Positions 351-8,246 of a stretch of 18,621 nucleotides of DNA are shown one piece after another. This stretch comes from Candidatus Hodarchaeum mangrovi (lineage in GTDB: Archaea > Asgardarchaeota > Heimdallarchaeia > Hodarchaeales > Hodarchaeaceae). Positions within the stretch are counted from its first letter, which is position 1. Each line of letters starts with the position of its first letter. The notes below the pieces were generated by a model. That model was not told the DNA's origin. It did no database searches and was given only the letters and a program-made list of their open reading frames with translations. The position numbers were made by a program, and so were the translations under genes. The stretch covers positions 1 through 18,621 of the forward strand of contig JAEOUE010000026.1 of the NCBI GenBank assembly GCA_016839515.1, written 5' to 3'.

Positions 351-633
351 AATTTTGGAAAATTCTGTATAATATGTAGTTTTAGCATATATGAACTACA
401 CACCACGCAAAAACTGATGCCAAAAGAAGCAGAAAACAAAGATCCTGATTCTATGTATCAAATAAAGATGGTTTTAACTAAAATAGGGTAAGACTTTGTT
501 AATTCCGAAATTAACCATAAAAATTACTTTAAAAACATTAAAAGCACTAAAAAGGAGTTAATCTATGATGAATAAAAGAATGAATCCTATTACTCAATCA
601 CAGGTGGTTTAAAGGGATTTAGAATCTTTTAAT

Positions 634-2169
634 CTAATTTCCTGGGCTTTTTGGCCTTTTTTGGATAATGTTAATTAACCAATCAATACCTTCTTGGATT
701 CCAATACCAGTTTTAGTATTAGTGTAAAAGATTTTTATTGATTGATCTATTTTTTGATTAATCCCTAAAGTCTTGGCTAGTTCCTCTTCTGTTATAGCTT
801 GTCCGTCTTCATTAATATCCTCTTGATTAGCAAAGATAGCTATCGGAATGTCTTTCAGGTGATCCATTTTCAACATTCGCCAAAGATTATTTCGAGCTTC
901 GGGAAATCGTGCTGGATCACTTACATCAACAACATAAATTAGGCCTGCTGAGTTTTTAGTATACATCTCCCAGAGAGTCCTTCGAAATTGTAATTGTCCC
1001 CCTATACCCCAACCGGAAAAGGTAACATCTCCAATCTGTATTGTTTCAGCGTTCATCCCGATAGAAGGTGTAGTATCAGGAATCCATCTACCCGTTTTTA
1101 ATCGCTGAAGCATTGTAGTTTTTCCTGCCCCATTTAGCCCTACGACACTTATTTTTATGTCCTTTTTTCTATATAATGAATTCCCTAGATCGGGAATCCC
1201 TAAGTCAGCTCCTAGTTTAGTTATTTTTTCTTTGCTTTTTTGATCACTAATTATTGCCCAAAGATTTCTGGCAATATTTTCCTCATCATAAATATTCAAT
1301 ATTGAGTTAATAAAAGTCTCTGTTTCTTTATATATAGCAGCTGATAATTTAAATTGCAGCTCAGGACAATAATATCTCCCATCATCAAATAAAAGAGGAT
1401 ATAAATCTTGTGTATAGCAAAGTGTCTCTTTTCCTAGCTTTAAAACACACCCAGCTTTAGAATCTTGCTTTTGAATACGAAAGGGACAAAAAACGTGGTG
1501 ATTGTATGAATGAGAATCCATCGCTATTTTAAGGGCTTCCTCGAGGATTTTGACAGGAATTATATTGAGTTTTTCTCGTACATCCTCATCAAGAGAAATA
1601 TTTTCAATATTAGCAGCAGGAATGATTATATCCTTAATTCCAACCGTAGAAGCCTCTTCAATCATGGTTGTTACATTTCTAACAGGTAGAACTTCTCCAC
1701 TAACAGAAAGTGAACCCATCATGGCGAGGTCTTGACGAATAGGAAGTTGTTTTAAATCACTCATGATAGCACAAGCAATAGCAAGGACAAAATGATCCCA
1801 CTCAACACCATGAACCCCAAGGAATTGGATATGGACATCCATTTTAGAAAGATTTATCCCTGTAAGTTTCCGAATTAGAATTGCCACATTTTGGATAGAT
1901 TCTCTTGTGAGAACACGAAGACGCCCTGTTGCTATTATTCTTCCACCTACTCCCTGGGTAGGAAATACCTGAACCTCAATTGGAACAACCTGACACCGTA
2001 TACCACGTGTTGGGTCGCGTACTACAATAAGACTATTAACACGGCCTACCATGCTACCTGTGGTTTGAATAACCTGATATTCTTTTTTATGTTCTAGTCG
2101 TTCTCCACACTCTATACAGTAAATTCCCATATCTGGACTCTCAGCCCCACATTTGTTACAATACTTCAT
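634..2169 (-). CDS. Fusion protein: zinc ribbon + inactive LonB-type (S16) protease domain + Cys-rich linker + Arf-like small GTPase domain
   Basis: The N-terminus has YCNKCG..YCIECG. The segment KKEYQVIQTTGSMVGRVN..IIATGRL..DVHIQF..GVEWDH..PIRQDLAMMGSLSVSGEVLPV..IIIPAAN follows archaeal LonB protease domains. The C-terminus has GLNGAGKTT, TTPSIGMN, WGIGGQ..R.LW..Y, GLIYVVD and IFANQED. I placed the start at ATG 2169 rather than TTG 2265 because a promoter-like/palindromic element lies between them. Confidence 0.85.
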   Translation of the reverse strand: MKYCNKCGAESPDMGIYCIECGERLEHKKEYQVIQTTGSMVGRVNSLIVVRDPTRGIRCQVVPIEVQVFPTQGVGGRIIATGRLRVLTRESIQNVAILIRKLTGINLSKMDVHIQFLGVHGVEWDHFVLAIACAIMSDLKQLPIRQDLAMMGSLSVSGEVLPVRNVTTMIEEASTVGIKDIIIPAANIENISLDEDVREKLNIIPVKILEEALKIAMDSHSYNHHVFCPFRIQKQDSKAGCVLKLGKETLCYTQDLYPLLFDDGRYYCPELQFKLSAAIYKETETFINSILNIYDEENIARNLWAIISDQKSKEKITKLGADLGIPDLGNSLYRKKDIKISVVGLNGAGKTTMLQRLKTGRWIPDTTPSIGMNAETIQIGDVTFSGWGIGGQLQFRRTLWEMYTKNSAGLIYVVDVSDPARFPEARNNLWRMLKMDHLKDIPIAIFANQEDINEDGQAITEEELAKTLGINQKIDQSIKIFYTNTKTGIGIQEGIDWLINIIQKRPKSPGN

Positions 2170-2190
2170 CTCGAAACCCCAAAAAATGAA

Positions 2191-2227
2191 TAATATTAAG
2201 AATGACTTAATATTAAATAGCTTTTCG
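2191..2227 (-). promoter_or_regulatory. Putative BRE/TATA promoter with overlapping palindromic operator for the Lon-GTPase gene
   Basis: The minus strand reads CGAAAAG-CTA-TTTAATA (BRE/TATA-like), with the TATA-like box about 45 nt upstream of ATG 2169. A perfect inverted repeat TAATATTAAG-aatga-CTTAATATTA lies at 2191-2215. Confidence 0.5.
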
Positions 2228-2447
2228 AGAAATAAAAGTCCAAGAATGGAAATTACTTTTTTCAAGTATCAAAACAGTCTACTAAAAACAAGTCCGAGAA
2301 CTAAAAGTTAATAGCTTTCAATAATTGAATATCCAAATATCTACCATTATTCAACTTCTTCTTTAAGGAAAAAGTTCAGTTTATCCGAACATTCTTTTCA
2401 TCTAGGGAATAATCAGCACCTTGTAACCTTTTACTTGTAGCACACGA

Positions 2448-4862
2448 CTACCTGGTGCTTTGAATAAAAGCCTTATCATTATTTGTTATTAGTTCCCATT
2501 TCTTCCTTTCTGAACGAAGTTTAAACAAATCAACATCTTTAAAAATAAGCCCCTCTTCACCTTTTGGTATTGTTCGTTCAATTCGGTCTTTTTCCGGTGT
2601 ATAAATTAGTGAATCTCCAAATTCCGCAATATTTGCAAAGAAACAATAAGCATAAATAGAACGTCTTGCATCGAAATGTGCAGCTTTAAAATCCGCTGTA
2701 ACTGGAGTGAATGATGGATTGAAAATCAAATCTATTGGGGGTTCAGAATTTTTTAATTCTACTCTTAAATCCATGTCCATAAAATCACGACAGATAATTA
2801 TTGCCATTCGTCCATAAATGGTATCACAAACTATCGTTTTTCTGGGTTTTTCGCCGACTTCAATTCCTTCGGTAAACCTCTTTCCATCGTACGTAATTGT
2901 CGCAGGGATGTGTTTCTCTTGAGTCCACAGAATACCTTCTGGAGAGATAACAGGACTTATATTACGCCTTGTATCACGATCATGATATGATCCAGGGATA
3001 ATATACATATTATATATCCTAGAATACTCCTGTAAAGTATTTAAAAGCAAAGAGTGGTTGAGATCAATGGCTAGCTCAGAAAATAAGAGAATGTTGATTT
3101 CTTTGGAAACAGCTAACTTAATAATTTCGTTGATTTTAGAATTAATTTCTTCGACTTTATTTTCTTTAAGTCTAAACACTTTTGGGTAGAATTCTTCATA
3201 ATAATCACTTAAAAAATTGTTTTCAATAGGCAAACCAATTTGTGCGATCCCAACTCTAAATTCATATTTTTGTTTCTCGGGTTGTTCTTTTAATACATCC
3301 TGATAGATAAGTTGATATTTTTTTCTAGGGACTATTGACATTTGATTGCTAATACCTTGAGTAACTATTTTTAAAACGTCTTGGATATAGTCTTCAATTT
3401 GAGCCATCTTGAGACGTTCCTGAAGCGATGCATTGCGCTGGTTCAATTCTTGCCATTTATCAAACTCAATTTCAAAAGTTTGCCTCTCTTCAGCAATTTT
3501 ATGAGTCAATAAGTCGAGATTCTTTTCTGTGGCAGTGAGTTTAGCTTGATCGTAGTATTTCAGGGCTTGTTGCAACTCCCCTTCAATGGTAGCAAATTTC
3601 GCGCGCAACAATAAGGCTTCTACAATCATGGGAAACATTTGTTGGTCTTGAGCCTTATTAGAGAATTGTTGGATCAGGGTTTTCGCCTCCGTCCACACTT
3701 CAGGATCACCAAAAGATTTTACCTCAAAGAGGAGGAGGTCACAGTAATTAATTGTGGCTAATGCTGTCCATTCGAACCAAATAACCTCTTCATTAACAAT
3801 ATGATTCAGTAGGACCTGAGCTTGGACTTTATCTTTCATCCGTCTACTTTGTTTTAAGACCAAAGCCTCTGCTAACTGGCTTCTAATGTAGATCTGTTTA
3901 TTCGGGGTTCGAGTATGAAGCTGTTGAAGTTGGTTCAGGTATGCTTGTGCTCGAGTTTGATCCTGTTGGTCTAAGGCAAGAAGAATAAGATAGAATAAGG
4001 TATATGATGACCATATATTGTTCCCTATCACCTCCTCTAAGGCTAAACTCCGTTGAAAACACTCTATCGCCTTGTCCAGCTCACCTTTAGCACGATAGAT
4101 TATACCAATATTGTCTAAGGTCGTGGCAATATCTTGGGGGTTACCAAGTTCCTCCTTTAAGGCTAAACTTCGCTGAAGATATTCTAATGCCTTGTTCAGC
4201 TCACCTTTAGCACGATAGGCATCACCAATATTGTTTAAGGCTAGAGCAATGTAAAAGGGATTGTTAATCTTATCAAATAAGGTTAAACCACGTTGATAGT
4301 ATTCTAACGCCTTATCCAGCTCGCCTTTAGTACGATAGATTAGACCAATATTGTTTAAGGATCCTGCAATATCTTGAAGGTTGCCAATCTCCTCACGTAT
4401 AGCTAAACTTTGCTTCCAATGTTTTAATGCCTTGTCCATATCCCCTAAAGTATAATAGAAATTGCCTTGTACATTTTCGAACAAACCTACCCATAATGTC
4501 CCAGCTTGCCGTTCCTTAACCGTTAAGGTCTCTACAATAGAGTTTCCTTCCTTAATGGGCTCTAAAGCATCATCCAGACGTCCCAGTTTCCATAAGGCAT
4601 ACAGTTGAGCTATAAGCAACGCCAATGTCATAGTTTTATCATTCAGAGACACAACATTCGCACGGGCAGCTGTTACTACCTGTAAAGCATCTTCGAGCTT
4701 TCCTAAAAAAACTAAGGAGCGACTTTTATAATAAAGGCATTCAATTTGTTCGTTTTCTGGTAAGGAAGCAAATACTCCTTGGTGATCCTTCTTTGCTAAC
4801 TGGTCTAGGACTTCCTGATACTTACCGTTCTCATAGAGGTCTTTAAGGGTCTTTACCAGCAT
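2448..4862 (-). CDS. TPR-repeat protein with C-terminal carbon-nitrogen hydrolase (nitrilase superfamily) domain
   Basis: 40-aa TPRs (LNNIG.IYR.KGELDKALEY.QRSL.L.EE.GN) followed by a helical region. The C-terminal domain has FRVGIAQI, ILLFSEL (E596), IIPGSY, QEKHIP (K650), IIICRDF (C691), DLIFNPS and FANIAEFGDS, i.e. a Glu-Lys-Cys triad in canonical order. Confidence 0.85.
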   Translation of the reverse strand: MLVKTLKDLYENGKYQEVLDQLAKKDHQGVFASLPENEQIECLYYKSRSLVFLGKLEDALQVVTAARANVVSLNDKTMTLALLIAQLYALWKLGRLDDALEPIKEGNSIVETLTVKERQAGTLWVGLFENVQGNFYYTLGDMDKALKHWKQSLAIREEIGNLQDIAGSLNNIGLIYRTKGELDKALEYYQRGLTLFDKINNPFYIALALNNIGDAYRAKGELNKALEYLQRSLALKEELGNPQDIATTLDNIGIIYRAKGELDKAIECFQRSLALEEVIGNNIWSSYTLFYLILLALDQQDQTRAQAYLNQLQQLHTRTPNKQIYIRSQLAEALVLKQSRRMKDKVQAQVLLNHIVNEEVIWFEWTALATINYCDLLLFEVKSFGDPEVWTEAKTLIQQFSNKAQDQQMFPMIVEALLLRAKFATIEGELQQALKYYDQAKLTATEKNLDLLTHKIAEERQTFEIEFDKWQELNQRNASLQERLKMAQIEDYIQDVLKIVTQGISNQMSIVPRKKYQLIYQDVLKEQPEKQKYEFRVGIAQIGLPIENNFLSDYYEEFYPKVFRLKENKVEEINSKINEIIKLAVSKEINILLFSELAIDLNHSLLLNTLQEYSRIYNMYIIPGSYHDRDTRRNISPVISPEGILWTQEKHIPATITYDGKRFTEGIEVGEKPRKTIVCDTIYGRMAIIICRDFMDMDLRVELKNSEPPIDLIFNPSFTPVTADFKAAHFDARRSIYAYCFFANIAEFGDSLIYTPEKDRIERTIPKGEEGLIFKDVDLFKLRSERKKWELITNNDKAFIQSTR
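4010..4490 (-). repeat. Tandem 120-bp (40-codon) intragenic repeats encoding TPR units
   Basis: Lines 4081, 4201 and 4321 all begin tc(a/g)cctttag(c/t)acgatag...accaatattgt(c/t)taagg. 4081-4120 and 4321-4360 match at 36/40 nt. A fourth, more diverged copy starts near 4441. Confidence 0.9.
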
Positions 4863-7712: not shown

Positions 7713-8246
7713 TTACTTGAGAGCTGTATAATGCTTTTGAATAATAAATTGAAGGATTGATTCAAATCCATCTGCATTTTCAGTTATTCCATAATACGCG
7801 ACATGAGGAGCTTCCGTTAGAATCTCTGGTTCGTCAATGTGTTGCTGAATCAATTCATCTGGTCCCAATTCTACAAAAGCTATAGGTATTTGGTAGCCTT
7901 CATTCTCCTTTATTAATTTTTTATAAAAAGTTTTGGCCGCTTTAAAGGAATTTTCATTATTCGTTGAAAATAAAATAATTGCTCCTTCTTTTTCATTATA
8001 GTACGTTTTTGCGAGCTTATCAATTAGGTATGGGCTTATAGGCTGCATTAGATTTATTTTAACAGTTCCTTGATGAGTTTCAAAAAGGAATGATGCAATA
8101 TTTAACGAAACAAGAGCTTTTTGATTTTCGATTTTATCTGGATATTTCTGAAGGAAGGCTTGAATAATATGATCAACAGGTTTATCGAGAAAACTAAGAA
8201 TGGCAATATTAAATATCATATTTGGAGTAAGATTGTTGTTAGACAA
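7713..8246 (-). CDS. Ras-superfamily-fold protein lacking G1-G5 motifs (putative pseudo-GTPase)
   Basis: 177 aa with the strand/helix pattern of Rab/Ran GTPases: FNIAIL..., FLFETHQGTVKINL, KLAKTYYNEKEGAIILFSTNNENSF, IPIAFV, FESILQFI. There is no GxxxxGK[ST], DxxG or NKxD. AGGTGTGA lies upstream of the TTG start. Confidence 0.6.
   Translation of the reverse strand: MSNNNLTPNMIFNIAILSFLDKPVDHIIQAFLQKYPDKIENQKALVSLNIASFLFETHQGTVKINLMQPISPYLIDKLAKTYYNEKEGAIILFSTNNENSFKAAKTFYKKLIKENEGYQIPIAFVELGPDELIQQHIDEPEILTEAPHVAYYGITENADGFESILQFIIQKHYTALK

What the first reader, a model, noticed from the sequence alone, without database searches (positions are those of the whole stretch)
634..2169. Zinc ribbon / LonB protease domain / Arf-like GTPase fusion
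Seen: one uninterrupted ORF joins a CxxC-x10-CxxC zinc ribbon, the proteolytic domain of archaeal LonB (about 2082-1516, with no AAA+ module or membrane anchor) and a C-terminal Arf/Arl-like G domain (about 1164-661). Known: Lon P-domains are normally coupled to AAA+ ATPases. Detached Lon-like domains occur in RadA/Sms (non-proteolytic, ring-forming) and in defence proteins such as BrxL and CalpL. Arf-like GTPases are eukaryotic-signature proteins of Asgard archaea. Inference: a housekeeping protease fold has been recruited as an oligomerisation or peptide-binding scaffold for a small-GTPase switch. I do not know of this architecture being described, but cannot search to confirm.
Basis: partly seen in the sequence, partly recalled or inferred. 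Interest (0 to 1): 0.88.

Follow-up and report, generated by a model that had tools for sequence, protein, structure and literature searches.

The report
Young chimeric dead-Lon/Arf-like gene
One archaeal species carries a real gene that stitches a zinc ribbon, an inactivated Lon protease domain, a small cysteine-rich domain and a degraded Arf-like GTPase domain into one protein; it looks like a recently assembled, weakly constrained gene and not a new protein family.

Summary
ORF 634-2169 (-) encodes 511 aa: a CxxC-x10-CxxC zinc ribbon, a LonB proteolytic domain without AAA+ module, and an Arf-family G domain. (1) A fourth module (res 222-320) belongs to a genus-restricted 4-Cys family otherwise seen only as free ~130-aa proteins. 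(2) The Lon Ser-Lys dyad is gone (S126H, K169M). (3) The G domain has lost the G3 Asp, G4 Lys and G5 Ala. It is not an assembly chimera: contigs from four studies bridge the junctions. It is a singleton. No other Lon+Arf protein appeared in 1.84 billion representatives, except a 98% identical, frameshift-truncated allele. None appeared in 40 related genomes. The 4-Cys and Arf modules are duplicates of the organism's own genes (dS about 0.75). They evolve roughly tenfold faster than their parents, with omega 0.17-0.29. Allelic variation is about 10-11 nonsynonymous to 2 synonymous. My verdict: a young chimeric gene encoding a non-catalytic or weakly constrained protein. Interest is moderate to low.

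The parts
2098..2169 (-). N-terminal C4 zinc ribbon (res 1-24; C4, C7, C18, C21)
   Evidence: The sequence shows CxxC-x10-CxxC. Pfam DZR and Zn_ribbon_3 match below threshold. The same ribbon type sits at the C-terminus of the related Arf proteins P0026 and P0038.
1507..2097 (-). LonB-type proteolytic (S16) domain with the catalytic dyad replaced (res 25-221; D125-H126 in place of Asp-Ser, M169 in place of Lys)
   Evidence: Domain identity. Loss of the dyad and surrounding motifs. Sister to P0125 with support 100/95.
1210..1506 (-). 4-Cys middle module (res 222-320; C228, C241, C251, C268), from a genus-restricted family of free ~130-aa proteins
   Evidence: Own-genome paralogues at 63% and 53% identity. 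No Pfam match. Four invariant Cys in the family alignment. Family distribution. Tree.
1168..1209 (-). Linker (res 321-334); it takes the place of the C-terminal helix of the free 4-Cys proteins
   Evidence: Alignment.
655..1167 (-). Arf-family G domain (res 335-505) with GLNGAGKT (344-351), PSIG (368-371), WGIGGQ (387-392), NQED (448-451) and NTKTG (484-488)
634..654 (-). C-terminal tail (res 506-511) and stop codon (634-636)
1236..1241 (-). A6 run in codons 310-312. Loss of one A gives exactly the C-terminus of the truncated allele P0002. The common allele S312N (1235 C>T on the + strand) lengthens the run.
   Evidence: No indel here in any of the 4 runs laid (table 4).
2209..2217 (-). TATA-like TTTAATATT about 44 nt upstream of the ATG (inferred promoter element, not tested)
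   Evidence: Read from the sequence. Inference only.

Best explanation
This is a real, intact but evolutionarily young chimeric gene. It is confined to one species of an Asgard archaeon, probably Hodarchaeales judging from the source names of its closest homologues. It was assembled from four pre-existing pieces:
- a C4 zinc ribbon;
- a protease domain from an older, already Lys-less line of LonB paralogues;
- a duplicate of the organism's own free 4-Cys protein;
- a duplicate of its own highly conserved free Arf-like GTPase.

The protein cannot work as a Lon protease, because Ser is replaced by His, Lys by Met, and the pocket is remodelled. It is unlikely to work as a canonical Arf switch, because the G3 Asp, G4 Lys and G5 Ala are lost.

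Shown: the anatomy, the origin of the parts, the loss of catalytic residues, the fast evolution, and the restriction to one lineage.

Inferred: the product is a non-catalytic (pseudoenzyme-type) adaptor under weak constraint. The folds would be kept for binding, and the G domain would at most be a low-affinity or fast-exchanging nucleotide sensor. It may be on its way either to a new role or to loss.
For: The gene is real. 20 of 24 listed runs from 8 studies hold at least half of its 31-mers. Contigs bridge the ZnR/Lon junction in 4 of 4 laid runs, the Lon/4-Cys junction in 2 of 4 (X1 record 6, X2 record 14), and the 4-Cys/Arf junction in 4 of 4. There is no indel in the coding part.

The Lon site is dead. 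GDSAS becomes WDHFV and the xAKxE Lys becomes TTMIE. All 36 canonical LonB rows in the same alignment keep both Ser and Lys. 17 of 55 columns that are at least 95% conserved in canonical LonB are lost, clustered at the two catalytic motifs. The genome keeps an intact LonB.

The G domain is degraded. 41 of 47 columns that are at least 90% conserved in 55 Arf-family sequences are kept. The six lost are D346N, T369S, D388G, K449Q, R476Q and A485T. Five of them lie among the 21 conserved columns inside G1-G5, against 1 of 26 outside (Fisher p 0.076).

The parts come from paralogues.
- The Arf module falls in a clade with the genome's own free Arf (98/94) and shares its species-specific loop.
- There are 34 amino-acid changes on the fusion branch against 2 on the parent branch.
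- The 4-Cys module nests in the clade of the genome's own free copy (100/98). Its end branch is 0.85, against 0.07-0.09 for its siblings.
- dS is 0.76 and 0.73 and omega is 0.17 and 0.29. So there has been some purifying selection since duplication.

The architecture is a singleton. 0 of 40 related genomes have Lon and Arf in one frame. The 4-Cys family is in 18 of 21 same-genus genomes, always in frames of 93-165 aa except here. The exhaustive HMMER search found only P0002.
Against: Omega is below 1, and fold-determining residues are retained in both enzyme-derived modules. Both facts are also what a fully functional, selected protein would show.

Loss of the G3 Asp does not prove loss of GTP binding. 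MglA-type GTPases lack it and still work (passages read in PMC4316618). No nucleotide-binding or oligomerisation data exist.

The near-neutral allelic pattern rests on only 12-13 variants taken from contigs, not reads.

Splitting dS equally between the two branches is an assumption.

The frameshift in P0002 could be a homopolymer sequencing error.
Confidence: 0.55

Rival explanations
1. One reading: this is a selected, functional new architecture in which the inactive Lon fold forms a ring or peptide-binding platform that presents working Arf-like GTP switches.
For: The Lon fold is retained, with 38 of 55 conserved columns kept and the losses confined to the active site. P-loop, switch II Gln, and the G4 Asn and Asp are kept. 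Omega is 0.17-0.29. The ORF is intact in 4 of 4 laid runs. A zinc ribbon recurs on the nearest Arf relatives P0026 and P0038.
Against: The architecture is found in one species only. The G3 Asp, G4 Lys and G5 Ala are lost, while the parent copy is invariant over its first ~85 residues in 12 sequences of the genus. Evolution is about tenfold faster than in the parent copies. Allelic variation is about 10-11 nonsynonymous to 2 synonymous. One allele is truncated.
Confidence: 0.17
2. The gene is non-functional debris: a chimeric ORF created by rearrangement that is drifting towards a pseudogene.
For: pN/pS is about 1.4-1.5 on 12-13 variants. That fits neutrality (P 0.43-0.49) and does not fit pN/pS 0.2 (P 0.002-0.004). 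The allele P0002 is frameshifted at an A-run. Canonical residues are lost in both enzyme modules. The gene is absent next to the 84-87% identical TPR-nitrilase orthologues of 4 related species.
Against: A 511-codon frame stays open in a genome of about 33% G+C although dS to the parents is about 0.75. Omega is below 1. Conserved columns are hit less often than variable ones: 6 of 47 conserved columns are changed, against 34 changes over about 171 aligned positions. The sister P0125 shares S126H, A127F, K169M and D190N at 57% identity, which suggests the remodelled pocket has been kept for a long time.
Confidence: 0.23
3. The gene is an assembly or binning chimera that joins unrelated genes.
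For: The genome is fragmented (348 contigs, 6% contamination). The paralogous Arf gene is broken over two contig ends.
Against: Independent contigs from 4 studies bridge the junctions. The modules are only 56-83% identical to their paralogues, so no repeat could have caused a misjoin. P0002 independently covers ZnR, Lon and 4-Cys.
Confidence: 0.02
4. The gene is a component of a conflict or defence locus together with the upstream TPR-nitrilase gene.
For: The neighbour at 2448-4862 matches PADLOC CARF_nitrilase (2.1e-17) and RT-nitrilase DRT models. It belongs to a much expanded family that sits in varying surroundings. Lon-like domains occur in BrxL and CalpL (recalled).
Against: The fusion matches BrxL only through general Lon homology (PADLOC E 1.4e-10; NCBIfam 26 bits against a cut-off of 628). 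Its protease site is dead. The pairing with the neighbour is not conserved. The rest of the window is ordinary metabolism.
Confidence: 0.03

Closest known systems
Archaeal LonB protease, proteolytic domain (structures 3k1j and 1z0w; family S16)
   Same: The fold-level sequence match is clear: E 5.7e-45 and 1.8e-41, about 45-50% identity over res 25-229. The module begins at the same inter-domain linker as in LonB (LEHKKEYQVIQT).
   Different: There is no AAA+ module and no membrane insertion. Catalytic Ser is replaced by His and Lys by Met, and the GDSAS and PVGG motifs are remodelled.
Lys-less LonB paralogues from metagenomes (P0125, P0045, P0129/G016:C133, P0161)
   Same: P0125 is the sister (100/95) and shares S96A, S126H, A127F, K169M and D190N. 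All five rows lack the catalytic Lys and the conserved Gly corresponding to G164.
   Different: None of them carries a zinc ribbon, a 4-Cys module or an Arf module. P0125 keeps a remnant of the AAA+ lid and P0045 a full AAA+. P0129 stands alone next to an ORF pair that I read as IS605-like (OrfA plus TnpB) from their sequences, without a family scan.
Asgard Arf-family GTPases (AArf/ArfR) with accessory domains
   Same: The G domain is Arf-family and matches solved chains whose entries are titled Arf GTPase (8oul, E 1e-30); that these are Asgard proteins is recalled. The literature reports AArfs with structurally diverse N-termini, some forming extra domains such as longin (passages of PMC11914678). 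It also reports Asgard GTPases fused to longin or roadblock domains (passages of PMC10933270).
   Different: The accessory domains here are a dead Lon domain, a 4-Cys domain and a zinc ribbon. None of these is mentioned in the main texts I searched. The G3, G4 and G5 residues are non-canonical.
RadA/Sms, BrxL and CalpL (detached Lon-like domains)
   Same: A Lon-like domain is used outside an ATP-dependent protease. In RadA the domain is non-proteolytic (recalled).
   Different: Scores are far below the family thresholds: RadA 51.7 against 403 bits, BrxL 26.2 against 628 bits. No RecA-like or SAVED family was listed by Pfam.

Membership tests
Lon protease (S16, LonB type) | Lon_C proteolytic-domain fold or sequence | tested here: met
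   Pfam Lon_C 60.6 bits against a cut-off of 21.1. PDB LonB E 5.7e-45.
Lon protease (S16, LonB type) | Catalytic Ser-Lys dyad | tested here: not met
   His126 stands at the Ser position and Met169 at the Lys position. All 36 canonical rows keep Ser and Lys.
Lon protease (S16, LonB type) | AAA+ ATPase module (with membrane insertion in LonB) | tested here: not met
   The LonB model matches only over profile positions 403-597 of 608, at 173.8 bits against a cut-off of 516.6. There is no significant AAA+ Pfam match.
Arf family small GTPase | Arf-family G-domain sequence | tested here: met
   Pfam Arf 144.8 bits against a cut-off of 22.3. Arf1 structures E about 1e-35.
Arf family small GTPase | G1 P-loop GxxxxGK[ST] (motif definition recalled) | tested here: met
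   GLNGAGKT at res 344-351. The Asp of GLD is Asn here; it is D in 50 of 55 relatives.
Arf family small GTPase | G3 DxxGQ with the Mg-coordinating Asp | tested here: not met
   WGIGGQ: Gly388 stands where 54 of 55 relatives have Asp. The Gln is kept.
Arf family small GTPase | G4 NKxD | tested here: not met
   NQED: Gln449 stands where 55 of 55 relatives have Lys. Asn and Asp are kept.
Arf family small GTPase | GTP binding and hydrolysis, nucleotide-dependent switch | not testable with these tools
   This needs biochemistry. The MglA precedent shows that loss of the G3 Asp alone is not decisive (PMC4316618 passages).
Arf family small GTPase | N-terminal amphipathic helix for membrane binding (eukaryotic Arfs) | tested here: inconclusive
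   The G domain is internal, preceded by 334 residues. Its free parent starts only about 8 residues before the P-loop strand. No helix prediction was made.
Zinc ribbon (DZR / zinc_ribbon_2 type) | Two CxxC knuckles about 10 residues apart, and an HMM match | tested here: inconclusive
   The CxxC-x10-CxxC pattern is present. The Pfam scores are below threshold: DZR 17.2 against 27.3, Zn_ribbon_3 11.4 against 27.
RadA/Sms | Whole-protein model (zinc finger + RecA-like ATPase + Lon-like domain) | tested here: not met
   TIGR00416 gives 51.7 bits against a cut-off of 403, over the Lon-like part only.
BrxL (BREX) | Whole-protein model and a BREX gene neighbourhood | tested here: not met
   TIGR02653 gives 26.2 bits against 628. 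The PADLOC BrxL match covers only profile positions 541-674 of 680. No other BREX model matched the 4 proteins scanned. The other genes of the window were scanned with Pfam only, or not at all.

The most novel reading that the evidence does not exclude
The fusion is a selected 'Rosetta stone'. It would show that the genus-specific 4-Cys proteins, which are always free, in tandem pairs and of unknown function, are partners (effector or regulator) of the conserved helix-less Arf-like GTPase of these archaea. It would also show that a remodelled Lon pocket (Asp-His, Met), shared with P0125, has been kept as a new binding or catalytic site. The protein would then be a multivalent Lon-ring platform carrying atypical G domains.
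Probability: 0.12. Interest if true: 0.7.

Novelty: new variant of a known kind. Interest (0 to 1): 0.4.

Why it matters
The finding matters in three ways.
- It is a datable example of domain shuffling that builds a multidomain small-GTPase protein in the archaeal group closest to eukaryotes. All four donor lineages are identifiable, and two of them still sit in the same genome.
- It warns that automatic annotation would label this gene a Lon protease or an Arf GTPase, although both active sites are degraded.
- If the fusion is functional, it links an orphan 4-Cys family to Arf-like signalling, and that link can be tested directly.

If it is not functional, it is an ordinary by-product of gene turnover in a variable region.

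Tried and rejected
Homo-oligomer prediction of the Lon module (3 copies, res 25-225, alignment A1) gave no verdict, score 0.00. It is neither support nor evidence against.

AlphaFold2 models of the 4-Cys module had mean pLDDT 53.5 with 10 sequences and 60.5 with 30 sequences. The Cys-rich half stayed below 50, so neither model is usable. A VIA-align wide search with the better model gave only helical-hairpin matches at Z 6.3 or less over residues 58-128, which I regard as meaningless. The ESM Atlas gave no hit at 0.9 or above and no family.

Three composite alignments meant to support a full-length or C-terminal-half model (A2, A4, A6) were misaligned by MAFFT and were dropped. No full-length model was made.

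A profile search with the Lys-less Lon set (A5) was swamped by full-length LonB, because one row carried an AAA+ module.

P0125 was sought in 83 genomes of the class. Only canonical LonB genes and the window's own gene matched, so its source and context remain unknown.

No RNA holder was listed for the gene, so I have nothing on expression.

A possible longer start at the TTG at 2265 would add a hydrophobic 32-residue N-terminus. The variant haplotype there neither breaks nor clearly conserves it. I keep the ATG at 2169, which is also where P0002 starts.

One contig of run X2 replaces window 1157-1432 by 240 other letters (table 5). I could not see those letters and cannot say what that variant is.

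Literature searches and term look-ups in four papers found no mention of a Lon domain joined to a small GTPase. Supplements are closed. Supplementary Dataset D8 of PMC11914678 lists N-terminal domains of Asgard Arfs and could hold a relevant entry that I could not see.
Full report
What is there.

The minus strand carries one open frame, 634..2265. The likely start is the ATG at 2169. It is preceded by a TATA-like TTTAATATT, and the independent allele P0002 starts at the same place. This start gives a 511-aa protein, P0001.

The protein has four modules, not three.
- Residues 1-24 form a CxxC-x10-CxxC zinc ribbon. The pattern is clear, but the Pfam scores are below threshold.
- Residues 25-221 are a LonB-type protease domain. 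Pfam Lon_C scores E 2e-16. The NCBIfam LonB model is matched only over positions 403-597 of 608. Thermococcus Lon 3k1j scores E 5.7e-45.
- Residues 222-320 are a module with four invariant cysteines (C228, C241, C251, C268). It has no Pfam match.
- Residues 335-505 are an Arf-family G domain. Pfam Arf scores E 2.4e-42 and Arf1 structures about 1e-35.

Is it real?

The 1.9-kb stretch is held at half or more of its sampled 31-mers by 20 of the 24 listed runs, from 8 studies. I laid the contigs of four runs from four studies.
- The zinc-ribbon/Lon junction (about 2097) is bridged in 4 of 4 runs.
- The Lon/4-Cys junction (about 1507) is bridged in 2 of 4: X1 by an 826-base contig covering 1082-1907, and X2 by a contig covering 1438-2500. 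X3's contigs only abut there, and X7 has no cover.
- The 4-Cys/Arf junction (about 1167-1210) is bridged in 4 of 4.
- No insertion or deletion was reported inside the coding part.

One of these runs may be the sample the window came from. Even so, the modules are only 56-83% identical to their paralogues, so no repeat could have caused a misjoin. An assembly chimera is therefore very unlikely.

Both enzyme-derived modules have lost canonical residues.

In the alignments to solved LonB domains, the catalytic motif GVEGDSAS reads GVEWDHFV, and the catalytic-Lys motif GGVTQKIE reads RNVTTMIE. In a 42-row alignment, all 36 canonical LonB rows keep both Ser and Lys.

Of 55 columns that are at least 95% conserved in canonical LonB, the module keeps 38. 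The 17 losses cluster at the two catalytic motifs: G124W, S126H, A127F, S128V, T151M, R157S, G164R, G165N, K169M and D190N. The genome's own full-length LonB (contig C63, 638-aa frame) keeps GDSAS and the Lys.

In the G domain, 41 of 47 columns that are at least 90% conserved among 55 Arf-family sequences are kept. The six lost are:
- D346N in the P-loop;
- T369S in switch I (all four laid runs read Thr here);
- D388G, the G3 Asp (Asp in 54 of 55);
- K449Q, the G4 Lys (Lys in 55 of 55);
- R476Q;
- A485T in G5.

Five of the six fall among the 21 conserved columns inside G1-G5, against one of 26 outside (Fisher p 0.076). From memory, changes at the equivalent Ras positions (D57, K117, A146) lower nucleotide affinity or speed up exchange. 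[quoted passage not shown] That MglA nevertheless works is recalled. Loss of the Asp alone therefore does not prove a dead G domain.

Where the parts came from.

The Arf module. The genome holds a free Arf-like gene split over two contig ends that overlap exactly by 123 bases. It has canonical motifs (GLDRAGKT, WDLGGQ, NKVD, SAK). Its first ~85 residues are identical in the genome's own copy and 11 orthologues from the genus. The fusion's Arf module falls in a clade with this gene and two metagenomic relatives, P0123 and P0026 (98/94). End branches are 0 for the parent, 0.42 for the fusion, 0.30 for P0026 and 0.67 for P0123. It shares the parent's species-specific loop. With 11 orthologues as outgroup, 34 amino-acid changes fall on the fusion branch and 2 on the parent branch. 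One search's residue numbers after about position 459 run one too high; searches give the right ones. Nei-Gojobori values are dS 0.76, dN 0.13 and omega 0.17.

The 4-Cys module. Its family was found in 18 of 21 other same-genus genomes and in 0 of 61 genomes of other genera of the class with this query. All 40 listed matches lie in frames of 93-165 aa, except the one in this window. In the 6 loci I fetched, the family always appeared as two adjacent copies, with no Lon, Arf or zinc-ribbon match nearby. The fusion's copy nests inside the tight clade of the genome's own free copy (100/98). Its end branch is 0.85, against 0.07-0.09 for its three siblings. Values are dS 0.73, dN 0.21 and omega 0.29. 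The similar dS of the two modules suggests that they were duplicated at about the same time.

The Lon module is older. dS to LonB genes is saturated. Its sister is a 324-aa metagenomic protein, P0125 (100/95), which shares S96A, S126H, A127F, K169M and D190N. P0045 is the next relative (96/86). Two free-standing Lon domains, P0129 (which is G016:C133) and P0161, also lack the Lys. P0129 lies beside an ORF pair that I read as IS605-like OrfA plus TnpB from their sequences; I ran no family scan on them. So the module was taken from an already inactive LonB paralogue line, not from the housekeeping gene.

The zinc ribbon. The same ribbon type sits at the C-terminus of P0026, the nearest relative of the Arf module, and of P0038. 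The association of ribbon and Arf therefore recurs.

How widespread is the architecture?

A word-indexed search of 5.8 billion clusters scored 8000 candidates, found 341 hits and listed 120. An exhaustive HMMER search of 1.84 billion representatives found 12,887 hits and listed 150. Only P0002 shares more than one module.

In one search, a protein with both a Lon and an Arf match should score about the sum of the two, 225 bits or more. The only such rows are P0002, P0122, P0026, P0123 and P0124. I read the first four: apart from P0002, none has a Lon part, and P0122 is a tandem Arf. P0124 is too short, at 188 aa. Of about 17 two-stretch rows I read five, and all five are tandem Arfs.

In 40 related genomes (21 of the same genus), no listed match joins Lon and Arf in one frame. 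Each same-genus genome has a free Arf at 68-74% identity, mostly in frames of 197-268 aa. LonB matches were listed for most of them, in 635-663-aa frames (42 weaker matches were not listed).

Orthologues of the upstream TPR-nitrilase gene at 84-87% identity exist in four species. In the two where I read the flanking ORFs, the downstream genes are unrelated, and nucleotide similarity stops at about window 2346-2360. The gene therefore sits in a variable place.

Constraint.

Omega below 1 and the better retention of conserved columns show purifying selection averaged over the time since duplication. If dS is split equally between the two branches (an assumption), omega on the fusion branch is about 0.3 for the Arf module and about 0.5 for the 4-Cys module.

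Present-day alleles tell a looser story. I first removed variants that match the paralogue or lie on clearly divergent contigs. The four runs then give about 10-11 nonsynonymous changes (P12L, I16T, Y222S, F286Y, S312N, S369T, N373K, T398A, E454D, D455E, perhaps P419L) against 2 synonymous ones. With 1197 nonsynonymous and 336 synonymous sites, this gives pN/pS of about 1.4-1.5. That is compatible with neutrality and incompatible with pN/pS 0.2 (P 0.002-0.004). The numbers are small, they come from contigs, and four further variants were not shown by the tool.

The database allele P0002 has 4 substitutions in 311 residues and ends ...DQKAKKK. This is exactly the reading produced by losing one A from the A6 run in codons 310-312, followed by TAA. 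It is either a truncated allele lacking the Arf module or a homopolymer error. The four laid runs show no such deletion.

Context.

The rest of the window encodes ordinary metabolism and transport. It includes a 2-oxoacid:ferredoxin oxidoreductase, an acyl-CoA dehydrogenase, a GalT-like enzyme, an MFS transporter and a TetR regulator. The upstream neighbour combines TPR repeats with a nitrilase-like domain that matches defence-associated nitrilase models, but the pairing is not conserved.

Conclusion.

It is nevertheless a single-lineage, recently assembled chimera whose two enzyme modules have both lost canonical catalytic or ligand-binding residues.

The best reading (0.55) is a weakly constrained non-catalytic protein: a pseudoenzyme-type adaptor that may be gaining a role or being lost. 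Pure debris (0.23) and a fully functional Lon-scaffolded switch (0.17) remain open. Known Asgard Arf-like GTPases already carry accessory domains such as longin and roadblock (passages of PMC11914678 and PMC10933270). I therefore rate this a new variant of a known kind, of moderate to low interest.

Noticed in passing
window 2448-4862 (-): An 804-aa protein combines TPR repeats with a C-terminal CN-hydrolase (nitrilase-like) domain. That domain matches PADLOC CARF_nitrilase (2.1e-17) and RT-nitrilase DRT models. The family is much expanded, with 10 matches in this genome and up to 17 in relatives, some in 1286-aa frames. It sits in varying surroundings.
   Followed up: partly
G000 contigs C121 (L006 1516-1734) and C39 (L002 1429-1920): The genome's conserved free Arf-like gene is split over two contig ends that overlap exactly by 123 bases. 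The assembly probably broke there because of the similar stretch in the fusion gene.
   Followed up: yes
L022 (G016:C133) 887-3937: A free-standing 206-aa Lon protease domain (Ser kept, catalytic Lys replaced by Met) lies directly after two ORFs that I read as an IS605-like OrfA and TnpB pair from their sequences, without a family scan. This hints that mobile elements help to detach Lon domains in this genus.
   Followed up: partly
window 7713-8246 (-): A 177-aa ORF has a weak Ras-family match over its middle only (E 3.6e-5, res 76-130), and I see no P-loop in its sequence. It may be another degraded small-GTPase-like gene.
   Followed up: no
L004/L036 (G000:C132) 622-3152 and loci L031-L035: The free 4-Cys genes come as tandem pairs. 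In most loci they are flanked by a conserved 245-aa protein, with hydrophobic stretches and repeated Cys pairs by eye (no family scan), and by a conserved ~229-aa ORF that was not scanned against any family library.
   Followed up: partly
window 1157-1432, run X2: One contig replaces these 276 bases (res 246-338) by 240 other bases, an in-frame difference of 12 codons (table 5). This may be a second, divergent form of the 4-Cys/linker region in that population.
   Followed up: no
proteins P0026 and P0123: Two further fast-evolving duplicates of the same conserved Arf exist in metagenomes. P0026 has a C-terminal zinc ribbon and a P-loop GKR. P0123 has an N-terminal extension and Leu in place of the switch II Gln. 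The parent Arf seems to spawn short-lived decorated copies repeatedly.
   Followed up: partly
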